Positions 10,401 through 13,400 of a stretch of 64,000 bases of DNA are shown one piece after another. The position numbers are program-made. The stretch is taken from the NCBI RefSeq assembly GCF_013315695.1, contig NZ_CP054353.1. One strand, 5' to 3'. This DNA comes from Escherichia coli. GTDB taxonomy: Bacteria > Pseudomonadota > Gammaproteobacteria > Enterobacterales > Enterobacteriaceae. Position 1 is the stretch's first letter. Each line of letters starts with the position of its first letter.

Positions 10401-13400
10401 CACGACGTTGTGAAAGCCCCTGCTGCTGGCGGATTTCCGACAAGCGTTTTCCTGGCGCCAGTCCCTCATCACTCATATTTGCATTTCCTTAAACTGTAGT
10501 GGTCAGAGTCGCTGTTTTTCAGCGATATGGTGCTGACAAGCGGTGATAAAGCCCTCGAACAATATACGCGAAAGCGCGTACTCGCTACTGTTCCATTCCG
10601 GGTGCCACTGTACGCCCAGCGCAAAAGGATGATTGATGACGCTAACCGCCTCAACTAAGCCATCCGGCGAGCGAGCTTCAACACGCAACCGTGGGCTAAC
10701 GACCTTCGCCCCTTGTCCATGCAGAGAGTTTACCCAAAAGTTGCTACATTCAGGTAACAACGCAGACAGCAATCCCCCCTCTTCAACCTGAACTTCATGC
10801 GACGGTGCATATTGCTGCTCCACCGGCAGTTCGGGATCTTCCCGATGTTCCAGCAATTCAGGCTGTTCGCACAGCTTGCGATGCAACGAACCACCGGTTG
10901 CCACCACCAGTTCCTGTAAACCCCGGCAGATGGCGAAAATGGGGATGCGCCTTTCGAGTGCGGCATTAATTAACGCCATGCTCAGAAGATCACGCCCGGG
11001 ATCGGCGTCAGGCTCATCGCCGTTTTCACCATATAGGTGCGGCTGCACATTGCTGGGACTACCAGGAAGATAAATACCATCGAGTTTCGGCAAAAGTTGT
11101 TCAAGTAACGACGGTTCCGCCAGCGCATGTGGTAGCGCTATTGGCAAACCGCCTGCGTGGATGATGGCATTCAGGTACTTTTCTTGCAGAGTCTGGGTCG
11201 CATGACCCTTAAGCCTGTTCCTGCACATTACGACACCGATAACCGGATTGTTCATTATATTTTCCATGCTCAATCTCACAAAGTGGACTAAATTATCGCC
11301 ATTACTGCGCTTTAAATGACCTTTATGTTCAATATTTTTTCAATCTAGCAGCGGGTTTTCATATTTGCAAACTCAATTTAACATTTGACAAACATTTAGT
11401 TTACATACAGATTCGAATAGTGGTCATTATATTTTACGCTTTGATAACGAGCGGAAAACAAACCAAAGGCGAAGAATCATGGAAACCAATATCGTTGAAG
11501 TAGAGAACTTTGTTCAGCAGTCAGAAGAGAGGCGGGGTAGCGCCTTTACGCAGGAAGTGAAACGCTACCTGGAGCGCTACCCGAATACGCAATATGTTGA
11601 TGTTTTACTTACCGATTTGAATGGTTGCTTCCGTGGAAAACGTATTCCTGTTTCAAGCCTGAAGAAGCTCGAGAAAGGGTGTTATTTCCCGGCCTCGGTG
11701 TTTGCAATGGATATTCTGGGCAACGTAGTAGAAGAAGCGGGCCTGGGTCAGGAAATGGGCGAGCCGGATCGTACCTGTGTTCCTGTTCTCGGTTCCTTAA
11801 CCCCTTCTGCCGCCGATCCAGAGTTTATCGGTCAGATGCTCCTGACCATGGTCGATGAAGATGGCGCTCCCTTTGACGTTGAGCCGCGGAACGTTCTTAA
11901 CCGCCTGTGGCAGCAGCTGCGCCAGCGCGGATTGTTCCCGGTCGTAGCGGTAGAGCTGGAGTTCTATTTACTGGATCGCCAGCGCGACGCTGAAGGGTAT
12001 CTGCAACCGCCCTGCGCGCCCGGCACCGATGACCGCAATACACAAAGCCAGGTTTACTCCGTTGATAACCTCAACCACTTCGCCGACGTGCTCAATGATA
12101 TTGATGAGCTGGCGCAGTTACAGCTGATTCCGGCAGATGGCGCGGTCGCTGAGGCCTCGCCGGGTCAGTTTGAAATCAATCTTTACCATACCGATAACGT
12201 GCTGGAAGCTTGCGATGATGCGCTGGCACTAAAACGCCTGGTGCGTCTGATGGCAGAAAAGCATAAGATGCACGCCACTTTTATGGCGAAGCCGTATGAA
12301 GAGCACGCGGGCAGCGGGATGCATATCCATATCAGTATGCAGAATAACCGTGGCGAGAACGTGCTTTCTGACGCGGAAGGCGAAGATTCGCCGCTGCTGA
12401 AAAAGATGCTTGCCGGGATGATTGACCTGATGCCGTCATCAATGGCGTTGCTGGCACCAAACGTGAACTCGTATCGCCGCTTCCAGCCAGGTATGTATGT
12501 ACCGACGCAGGCGTCGTGGGGCCATAACAACCGCACCGTCGCCCTGCGTATTCCCTGCGGCGATCGCCATAATCACCGCGTGGAATATCGCGTGGCGGGT
12601 GCCGATGCCAACCCGTATCTGGTGATGGCGGCGATTTTTGCCGGTATTTTGCATGGCCTTGATAACGAACTGCCATTACAGGAAGAAGTCGAAGGTAACG
12701 GGCTGGAACAGGAAGGCTTACCCTTCCCGATTCGCCAGAGCGATGCCCTGGGTGAGTTTATCGAGAATGATCACCTGCGCCGCTATTTAGGCGAACGCTT
12801 CTGCCATGTCTATCACGCCTGTAAAAATGATGAGCTGTTGCAGTTTGAGCGCCTCATCACAGAAACAGAAATTGAGTGGATGTTGAAAAACGCGTAATAC
12901 CCCTTGCGGGGTTGTTTCATCGGCCTGAGCGGAGCCAGGCCTGACATTTGCTGGTAATCCAGACATTTCCCGGATGTCGCGTTATGGAGCGCAGGCGGCA
13001 ACGGGCTTCCGTTAACGATTAAGACTGTGACGAGGAAATGAGATGATGCCGATGATTAAATCCCCGCATGGCGAGGGAGGCTGCGTATGCGCCCCTCCTG
13101 CGACTGACTGGACTCCGCCCCCTTTGCTTCCCTTGCTAAACAGGTTTGATTTCAGGTCGACACGACCGCAAACCTTATTACGCAGGGGAGGCAGCAACTA
13201 TGGCTATTAATTCACCACTGACTATTGCTGCGCAATCTGGCAAAACCCGTCTGCGAAAATCACTGAAATTGTGGCAGGTGGTGATGATGGGTCTGGCCTA
13301 TCTCACGCCGATGACCGTATTTGATACTTTTGGTATTGTCTCCGGCATTAGCGACGGTCACGTTCCGGCGTCCTATTTGCTGGCGCTGGCGGGCGTGCTG

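What the first reader, a model, noticed from the sequence alone, without database searches (positions are those of the whole stretch)
11280..11478. puuD/puuA divergent control region with candidate PuuR operator
The AT-rich 199-bp spacer contains tttatgttcaatatttttt, whose reverse complement (aaaaaatattgaacataaa) resembles the AT-rich PuuR recognition motif as I remember it. Only one candidate site was spotted by eye.
Basis: partly seen in the sequence, partly recalled or inferred. Interest (0 to 1): 0.2.

Follow-up and report, generated by a model that had tools for sequence, protein, structure and literature searches.

The report
Known PuuR operator in puuD/puuA control region
The flagged AT-rich sequence is one of four binding sites for the putrescine-sensing repressor PuuR between the E. 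coli puuD and puuA genes, a switch already described in strain K-12, so the finding is correct but ordinary.

Summary
The window is E. coli. The spacer is 211 bp (11268-11478) from the annotated puuD ATG, not 199 bp.

I could not obtain a published PuuR matrix, so I built one from 15 non-Escherichia orthologous spacers. It is a palindromic 20-mer, nTG(G/T)nCAAWATWTTGn(C/A)CAn. Its four best hits in the whole 64 kb are all here:
- O1 11248-11267, 23.3 bits, over the puuD start codon
- O4 11420-11439, 19.4 bits
- O2 11283-11302, 15.3 bits

The best hit elsewhere scores 13.3 bits, and 0 of 5000 spacer shuffles gave four such sites. The array keeps its positions in all 56 puuD-puuA loci and recurs in held-out Serratia paralogues. 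All four sites are identical to K-12.

O3 covers -8 to +12 of the puuD promoter. O4 covers about +1 to +20 of the predicted puuA promoter. A published ArcA repeat array (11364-11406) covers both -35 elements.

This is already known (Nemoto et al. 2012, cited by held papers), so interest is low.

The parts
11325..11344 (.). PuuR operator O3 (ATGTTCAATATTTTTTCAAT). It spans -8 to +12 of the puuD promoter.
   Evidence: 21.2 bits on the non-Escherichia PWM, second best in 64 kb. 13 of 15 matches to the recalled motif. Position conserved in orthologues. Identical to K-12. Invariant in 10 E. coli strains. Position relative to the start site.
11248..11267 (.). PuuR operator O1 (- strand ATGGAAAATATAATGAACAA). 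Covers the puuD start codon and the next 17 bases of coding sequence, +70 to +89 of the puuD transcript.
   Evidence: Top PWM hit in the window, 23.3 bits. Exact match to the recalled 15-mer. Present at -19 in all 56 loci. The published 'full-length' reporter constructs were extended into puuD so as to include it (primers).
11283..11302 (.). PuuR operator O2 (GTGGACTAAATTATCGCCAT), in the puuD leader at +35 to +54.
   Evidence: 15.3 bits, fourth-best hit in the window. Conserved at +15 to +17 in all 56 loci. Conserved block in the footprint.
11420..11439 (.). PuuR operator O4 (GTGGTCATTATATTTTACGC), at about +1 to +20 of the predicted puuA promoter.
   Evidence: 19.4 bits. 14 of 15 matches to the recalled motif. 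Conserved at +150 to +162 from the puuD ATG, 95 bp from O3 in 44 of 53 loci.
11342..11350 (-). puuD extended -10 element (- strand TGCTAGATT). It overlaps the right end of O3 by 3 bp.
   Evidence: Lies at -11 to -6 of the start site derived from Park et al. 2013. The block AATCTAGCAG is conserved across genera. Assignment as the -10 is my inference.
11365..11370 (-). puuD -35 element (TTGCAA).
   Evidence: Lies at -34 to -29 of the derived start site, 17 bp from the -10. Conserved. Inferred.
11336..11336 (-). puuD transcription start, giving a 69-nt leader.
   Evidence: Derived arithmetically. Park et al. place the ArcA 43-mer at -70 to -28 of puuDR (PMC3798270 supplement), and that 43-mer maps to window 11364-11406.
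11364..11406 (-). ArcA array of four 11-bp-spaced direct repeats. It covers the -35 elements of both promoters.
   Evidence: K-12 ChIP peak, the 43-mer sequence and derepression in the arcA mutant (puuA 15.3-fold, puuDR 10.6-fold) are in PMC3798270 supplements. The 43-mer maps to the window with 1 mismatch, at 11403. It is the most conserved block of the spacer.
11385..11390 (+). Predicted puuA -35 element (TTGACA).
   Evidence: Perfect consensus hexamer, conserved as TTGACA or TTGAAA in most of the 13 genera aligned. Inferred; Park et al. list no start site for puuA.
11408..11413 (+). Predicted puuA -10 element (CAGATT), 17 bp after the -35. Predicted start is near 11420.
   Evidence: A at hexamer position 2 (11409) and T at position 6 (11413) are invariant in 13 species while the other positions vary (invariant columns A167 and T171). 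Inferred.
9919..10476 (-). puuR, the cognate repressor (185 aa, XRE-type HTH plus cupin), co-transcribed downstream of puuD.
   Evidence: Pfam HTH_3 6.4e-15 and Cupin_2 6.3e-19. 100% identical to PuuR of other Escherichia. Annotated as puuR.
10503..11267 (-). puuD (gamma-glutamyl-GABA hydrolase, 254 aa), starting at the ATG at 11267.
11479..12897 (+). puuA (glutamate-putrescine ligase, 472 aa).

Best explanation
The sequence at 11325-11344 is operator O3 of the putrescine-responsive repressor PuuR. It is one of four 20-bp palindromic PuuR sites (O1-O4) in the E. coli puuD/puuA divergent control region.

Proposed mechanism:
- A PuuR dimer binds each palindrome when intracellular putrescine is low. 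PuuR is an XRE helix-turn-helix plus cupin protein, encoded just downstream in the puuDR transcript.
- O3 lies across the -10 element and start point of the puuD promoter (-8 to +12), so bound PuuR excludes RNA polymerase there.
- O4 lies at about +1 to +20 of the puuA promoter and does the same for puuAP.
- O2 (+35 to +54) and O1 (+70 to +89, over the puuD start codon) lie in the puuD leader. They add repression by cooperative binding or as roadblocks, and they make puuR autoregulated.
- Putrescine binding to the cupin domain releases PuuR and induces the pathway.
- Independently, ArcA binds four direct repeats between the operators and covers both -35 elements, which shuts the region down anaerobically.

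Shown here: the four sites, their statistical strength, their conservation, their identity to K-12 and their geometry relative to the puuD start.
Taken from the literature: PuuR binding and release by putrescine, the puuD start site, and ArcA binding.
Inferred: the puuA promoter and start site, the roles of O1 and O2, and dimer stoichiometry.
For: - Gene context: puuR-puuD and puuA flank the spacer.
- The recalled 15-mer hits 11249-11263 (0 mismatches), 11421-11435 (1) and 11326-11340 (2). The window has 7 hits at 3 mismatches or fewer against 1.9 expected.
- Unconstrained EM on orthologous spacers converges from many seeds on a single palindromic 20-mer. It does so again without any Escherichia sequence: IC 16.3 bits, 61 sites, about 4 per spacer.
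- That matrix ranks O1, O3, O4 and O2 as the top four 20-mers of the 64 kb (23.3, 21.2, 19.4, 15.3 bits). The next best is 13.3. 0 of 5000 shuffles give four such sites.
- All 56 puuD-puuA loci carry the array with fixed spacings (35, 41-42 and 95 bp). Held-out Serratia puuR-puuA loci show the same array. Background is 16 hits in about 549,000 positions.
- All four operators are identical to K-12. O1, O3 and O4 are invariant in 10 strains.
- Literature: four PuuR motifs in this spacer. PuuR represses reporter fusions 6.9-fold with O2+O3 only and 36-fold with all four (PMC9951944).
- Literature: PuuR dissociates on putrescine binding, and XRE-cupin regulators bind palindromes as dimers in the core promoters of neighbouring genes (PMC7901475).
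- The puuD start and ArcA array come from PMC3798270 supplements.
Against: - No binding experiment was or could be done here.
- The primary footprinting paper (Nemoto et al. 2012) and any curated PuuR matrix were unavailable. Exact correspondence between my O1-O4 and their four footprinted sites therefore rests on the reporter primer design and on my memory of the motif.
- O3's right half-site (TCAAT) departs from the consensus (nCCAn), and O3 falls below 10 bits in Erwinia/Pantoea and in one Serratia locus.
- O1 lies in coding sequence, so its conservation is partly confounded by protein constraint.
- The E. coli SNP test has no power (1/80 against 5/151, p = 0.67).
- The puuA start site is only predicted.
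- Repression of the puuA reporters was weak, about 2-fold, in the heterologous host.
Confidence: 0.92

Rival explanations
1. The AT-rich sequence is only part of the puuD core promoter (-10 region, discriminator and start site). It is conserved for RNA polymerase and is not a repressor site.
For: It overlaps the extended -10 element TGCTAGATT and the start site at 11336. Promoter DNA is AT-rich and conserved.
Against: - The conserved positions follow the same palindrome (TGTTCAATA.. ..TCAAT) found at three other places in the spacer that are not -10 regions.
- The same 20-mer model recovers the site in held-out loci.
- A reporter carrying only O2 and O3 is repressed 6.9-fold by PuuR.
- The two roles are not exclusive: the operator overlaps the promoter.
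Confidence: 0.04
2. The site belongs to another regulator of this region (ArcA, FNR, or a nucleoid protein such as H-NS, Fis or IHF that prefers AT-rich DNA).
For: ArcA represses puuA and puuDR and has a ChIP peak here. A review cites FNR and ArcA sites in the spacer (PMC9397018). The DNA is AT-rich.
Against: - The mapped ArcA repeats are at 11364-11406, 20 bp away from O3.
- FNR-box matches in the spacer are only 3-mismatch hits, at 11385 and 11441. They are no better than chance and do not overlap O3.
- The motif is a specific palindrome with G/C-containing arms, not generic AT-rich DNA.
Confidence: 0.03
3. It is a chance resemblance in an AT-rich spacer.
For: AT-rich DNA produces many near-matches to AT-rich motifs.
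Against: - Composition-matched shuffles of the spacer reach 21.2 bits with frequency 0.0002, and none of 5000 gives four sites.
- The site's position is conserved from Escherichia to Serratia.
Confidence: 0.01

Closest known systems
PuuR operators of the E. coli K-12 puuA-puuD intergenic region (Nemoto et al. 2012, J Bacteriol 194:3437; cited in PMC9951944, PMC7901475 and PMC9397018)
   Same: Same genes and the same 211-bp spacer. All four operators are identical in sequence to K-12; the 4 spacer SNPs all fall outside them. There are four motifs, as the literature states.
   Different: Nothing functional. The window's strain carries SNPs at 11352, 11363, 11403 and 11419. Three of these alleles (11352, 11363, 11403) are unique among the 10 strains compared, and all four lie outside the operators.
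XRE-cupin local repressors of Pseudomonas (PauR, PsdR, ErfA; PMC7901475)
   Same: Same HTH_3 + Cupin_2 architecture. Same palindromic operators bound as dimers, located in core promoters of genes adjacent to the regulator, with ligand-induced release. PauR also controls gamma-glutamylation of polyamines.
   Different: PuuR's motif is its own: the family's consensus sequences differ from one another. PuuR uses an array of four sites in one divergent region, whereas PauR has 12 scattered loci.
ArcA multi-direct-repeat operators (Park et al. 2013, PMC3798270)
   Same: They share this control region. Four 11-bp-spaced repeats at 11364-11406 repress both promoters.

Membership tests
PuuR operator of the puuA-puuD divergon | Located in the control region between puuD(-puuR) and puuA | tested here: met
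   ORFs, RefSeq annotation and Pfam.
PuuR operator of the puuA-puuD divergon | Matches the PuuR recognition motif | tested here: met
   21.2 bits on a de novo matrix from non-Escherichia orthologues. 13 of 15 matches to the 15-mer AAAATATAATGAACA, recalled from memory. The published or curated matrix itself was not available.
PuuR operator of the puuA-puuD divergon | Sequence identical or near-identical to the experimentally studied K-12 sites | tested here: met
   O1-O4 are 100% identical to MG1655. The 4 spacer SNPs lie outside them.
PuuR operator of the puuA-puuD divergon | Cognate puuR gene present and intact | tested here: met
   185-aa ORF at 9919-10476 with HTH_3 + Cupin_2. 100% identical to other Escherichia PuuR.
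PuuR operator of the puuA-puuD divergon | Physically bound by PuuR and released by putrescine | not testable with these tools
   Literature only, for K-12: PMC9951944 and PMC7901475 citing Nemoto 2012. Reporter repression of 6.9-fold with O2+O3 and 36-fold with all four sites.
PuuR operator of the puuA-puuD divergon | Site position conserved in orthologous loci that carry puuR | tested here: met
   O3 scores 10 bits or more at +56 to +59 (+67 in Buttiauxella, which has a 10-bp insertion) in 52 of 56 loci. It also appears in held-out Serratia puuR-puuA loci. It falls below 10 bits in Erwinia/Pantoea (L040-L042) and in one Serratia locus (L050).
XRE-cupin repressor operator | Palindromic site suited to a dimer | tested here: met
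   EM without a symmetry constraint returned the palindrome nTGgtcAATATATTgacCAn.
XRE-cupin repressor operator | Lies in the core promoter of a gene next to the regulator's own gene | tested here: met
   O3 spans -8 to +12 of the puuD(R) promoter. This uses the start site implied by the PMC3798270 supplement.
   The repeats map to 11364-11406, not 11322-11344.
FNR site (considered for the spacer) | TTGAT-N4-ATCAA with few mismatches | tested here: inconclusive
   Only 3-mismatch hits at 11385 and 11441. The window has 320 such hits against 256 expected.

The most novel reading that the evidence does not exclude
The operators may act as one phased assembly rather than as independent sites.

- O2-O3 (42 bp, 4.0 helical turns) and O3-O4 (95 bp, 9.05 turns) are on the same face of the helix.
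- These spacings are held almost invariant from Escherichia to Serratia.
- The one natural length change between O2 and O3, in Buttiauxella, is +10 bp, exactly one turn.

PuuR dimers at O3 and O4 could therefore bridge by looping out the 84 bp that hold both -35 elements and the ArcA array, shutting both divergent promoters cooperatively. O1, which is out of phase at 3.3 turns, would act separately over the puuD start codon. I know of no report of this, but I could not read the primary paper.
Probability: 0.2. Interest if true: 0.3.

Novelty: already known. Interest (0 to 1): 0.08.

Why it matters
It matters little beyond correct annotation. The PuuR/putrescine switch in this spacer was characterised in K-12 in 2012 and is already used in biosensors.

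Three things are useful here:
- The full anatomy is mapped in window coordinates: four operators, two back-to-back promoters and the ArcA array.
- The comparison across 56 loci shows that the four-site architecture and its spacing are conserved across Enterobacterales. The strongest operator is embedded in the first 20 nt of the puuD coding sequence, so anyone truncating 'the intergenic region' for reporters or biosensors will lose it.

Tried and rejected
- **Primary paper.** Fetching Nemoto et al. 2012 by DOI and by PMC id failed because it is not held. Full-text searches for the literal 15-mer and 20-mer consensus strings found nothing. Both strings therefore remain recollections, not citations.
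- **Blurred motif run.** A long EM run with a loose cap on site frequency collapsed into a blurred, register-smeared AT-rich motif. I discarded it and used a capped EM followed by hard, non-overlapping assignment.
- **Promoter scan.** The generic sigma-70 scan gave one hit (TTGTGA..TATAAT, 11281 to 11254, - strand). I rejected it. It lies downstream of the puuD start site and inside the leader and coding start, and its TATAAT is simply the centre of operator O1.
- **FNR box.** Only chance-level 3-mismatch hits were found.
- **Sigma-54.** The candidate in Zhao et al. belongs to ycjJ/puuP, not to this spacer.
- **SNP avoidance within E. coli.** Underpowered: 6 variable sites, p = 0.67.
- **Motif against puuR presence in distant loci (Rouxiella, Ewingella, Rahnella).** Inconclusive. 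The arrays are degraded and the 3-kb flanks may miss puuR.
- **Weak 15-mer hits at 11369, 11380 and 11391.** These 5-mismatch hits are not a fifth PuuR site. They are the 11-bp-spaced ArcA repeats.

Full report
**Observation.** The window is E. coli. A 2.6-kb stretch around the finding is 100% identical to one RefSeq chromosome and 97.7-99.2% identical to the strains sampled down the ranking, and it is annotated puuR, puuD and puuA. The flagged 199-bp stretch is 67% A+T, against 49% for the window. The figure of 199 bp comes from extending the puuD ORF to a GTG at 11279. K-12 and eight other RefSeq genomes start puuD at the ATG at 11267, which gives a 211-bp spacer, 11268-11478. The GTG lies within a conserved Shine-Dalgarno-like GTGAG(G/A) block.

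I could not obtain one. The primary paper (Nemoto et al. 2012) is not held, and its motif string appears nowhere in the library. I used two substitutes.

First, I searched with the 15-mer I recall for PuuR, AAAATATAATGAACA, which is memory and not a citation. The window has 7 hits at 3 mismatches or fewer against 1.9 expected.

Second, I built an independent matrix:
- A scan of one genome per species with PuuA returned 80 loci. In 56 of them puuD(-puuR) is divergent from puuA with a 205-283-bp spacer, and the spacer is 211-212 bp in most Enterobacteriaceae.
- Expectation-maximisation with no symmetry constraint, seeded from every 20-mer, converged from many seeds on one palindrome, nTGgtcAATATATTgacCAn.
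- It converged on the same palindrome when all Escherichia sequences were excluded: 15 spacers, 61 sites, 16.3 bits.
- An earlier over-iterated run gave a blurred motif and was discarded.

Scored with the non-Escherichia matrix, the four best 20-mers in the whole 64 kb are all in this control region:
- O1 11248-11267, 23.3 bits
- O4 11420-11439, 19.4 bits
- O2 11283-11302, 15.3 bits

The best hit elsewhere scores 13.3 bits. None of 5000 composition-matched shuffles of the spacer contained four such sites, and a single shuffled spacer reached 21.2 bits with frequency 0.0002.

**Conservation.**
- All 56 puuD-puuA loci carry O1, O2 and O4 at fixed positions.
- 52 of them carry O3 at 10 bits or more. 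It falls below that in Erwinia/Pantoea (L040-L042) and in one Serratia locus (L050).
- Spacings are O1-O2 35±1 bp, O2-O3 41-42 bp, and O3-O4 95 bp in 44 of 53 loci.
- Twelve Serratia loci of a different type, with puuR directly divergent from a puuA paralogue, were never used in training. They show the same array with spacings of about 36, 41 and 96 bp.
- Outside the spacers there are 16 hits of 10 bits or more in about 549,000 positions.
- The multi-genus alignment shows the operators as conserved blocks separated by variable DNA.
- Against K-12 the spacer has four SNPs (11352, 11363, 11403, 11419), none inside an operator.
- Among ten E. coli strains O1, O3 and O4 are invariant. With only six variable spacer positions this has no statistical weight.

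**Anatomy of the control region.**
- *ArcA array.* Supplements of Park et al. 2013 (PMC3798270) list a ChIP peak at puuD/puuA. They give a 43-bp array of four 11-bp-spaced ArcA repeats, ATGCAAACTAAATGTTTGTCAAATGTTAAATTGAGTTTGCAAA, placed at -70 to -28 of puuDR. They also report derepression in an arcA mutant, 15.3-fold for puuA and 10.6-fold for puuDR. That 43-mer maps to window 11364-11406 with one mismatch.
- *puuD promoter.* The mapping places the puuD start at 11336 on the - strand, with a 69-nt leader. O3 then spans -8 to +12. It abuts a conserved extended -10, TGCTAGATT (11350 to 11342), that is 17 bp from a TTGCAA -35 (11370 to 11365). O2 is at +35 to +54. O1 is at +70 to +89, over the start codon.
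- *puuA promoter.* No start site is listed for puuA. I infer a promoter from a perfect, conserved TTGACA (11385-11390). It is followed after 17 bp by CAGATT (11408-11413), whose position-2 A and position-6 T are invariant in 13 species. That places O4 at about +1 to +20.
- *Overall layout.* The two promoters are back to back. ArcA covers both -35 elements, and one PuuR operator sits over each start site.
- *Other candidates.* FNR-box matches are at chance level. A reported sigma-54 candidate belongs to puuP, not to this spacer. The only hit of the generic promoter scan is a false positive centred on O1.

**Mechanism.** PuuR in the window is an intact 185-aa HTH_3 + Cupin_2 protein. Held papers, all citing Nemoto et al. 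2012, report the following:
- PuuR binds the puuA and puuD promoter regions through four motifs in this spacer and dissociates when putrescine rises (PMC9951944; PMC7901475).
- XRE-cupin regulators bind palindromes as dimers in the core promoters of neighbouring genes.

Reporter data from PMC9951944 can be mapped onto the window through its primer sequences:

| Construct | Window coordinates | Sites present | Repression by PuuR |
|---|---|---|---|
| puuD, short | 11412 to 11268 | O2 + O3 | 6.9-fold |
| puuD, full | 11478 to 11230 | O1-O4 | 36-fold |
| puuA, short | about 11355 to 11478 | O4 | 1.95-fold |
| puuA, full | 11243 to 11478 | O1-O4 | 2.2-fold |

The authors extended the 'full-length' constructs into the puuD coding sequence just far enough to include O1. 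This supports my placement of one of the four published motifs there.

The best-supported account is therefore promoter occlusion at O3 (puuD-puuR and downstream genes) and at O4 (puuA-puuP). O1 and O2 reinforce repression on the puuD side, puuR is autoregulated, putrescine induces, and ArcA provides independent anaerobic repression.

**Verdict.** The system is already known in K-12, and the operators here are identical to K-12's, so novelty is nil and interest is low.

The only reading that goes beyond the literature available to me concerns helical phasing. O2-O3 is 4.0 turns and O3-O4 is 9.05 turns, and a natural +10-bp insertion in Buttiauxella preserves the phase. This may reflect cooperative looping between operators. 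It is equally explained by constraint on promoter geometry, and I give it about 20%.

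Noticed in passing
window 10400-13000: Only 4373 of 5426 complete E. 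coli genomes hold this puuR-puuD-puuA stretch by megablast, so about a fifth appear to lack it. Six of the matching places are on plasmids.
   Followed up: no
window 17796-17815: The best PuuR-matrix hit outside the control region (CTGGTCATTATTGTTAACGT, 13.3 bits) lies inside sapB, part of the operon that K-12 annotation calls a putrescine exporter. It is one hit at this level in 63.7 kb, so probably chance.
   Followed up: partly
L055-L069 (e.g. L055:2606-3000): Serratia species carry a second locus in which puuR is directly divergent from a puuA paralogue, with no puuD and a spacer of about 394 bp. It still keeps an O1-O4-like operator array, including ATGGAAAATATATTGCCCAT, which looks like a relic of the puuD start.
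   Followed up: partly
L071:2764-3005: A contig titled 'Chryseobacterium sp. 18061' carries a complete enterobacterial puuR-puuD-puuA locus (PuuA 90% identical) with all four operators. This is probably contamination or a mislabelled assembly.
   Followed up: no
L030:2754-3005 (Buttiauxella); L040-L042 (Erwinia/Pantoea): Buttiauxella has a 10-bp insertion between O2 and O3 (51 bp against 41 bp), exactly one helical turn. Erwinia and Pantoea lack O3 and also the TGnTAGATT extended -10, which suggests a different puuD promoter there.
   Followed up: partly
window 11352, 11363, 11403: These three spacer alleles (C, A, A) are unique to the window among the 10 E. coli strains compared. The G-to-A change at 11403 turns the first ArcA repeat from ATGCAAA into ATGTAAA, closer to the TGTTAA consensus. 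The other two lie between the puuD -10 and -35 elements.
   Followed up: partly
window 11254-11281 (- strand): The only sigma-70 consensus hit in the region (TTGTGA, 16 nt, TATAAT; 10 of 12) lies downstream of the puuD start site. Its TATAAT is the centre of operator O1, so it is a false positive of the generic scan.
   Followed up: yes
window 13046-13210: By correspondence with K-12, a small annotated ORF, ymjE, sits between puuA and puuP and overlaps the puuP start (13200). It was not examined.
   Followed up: no
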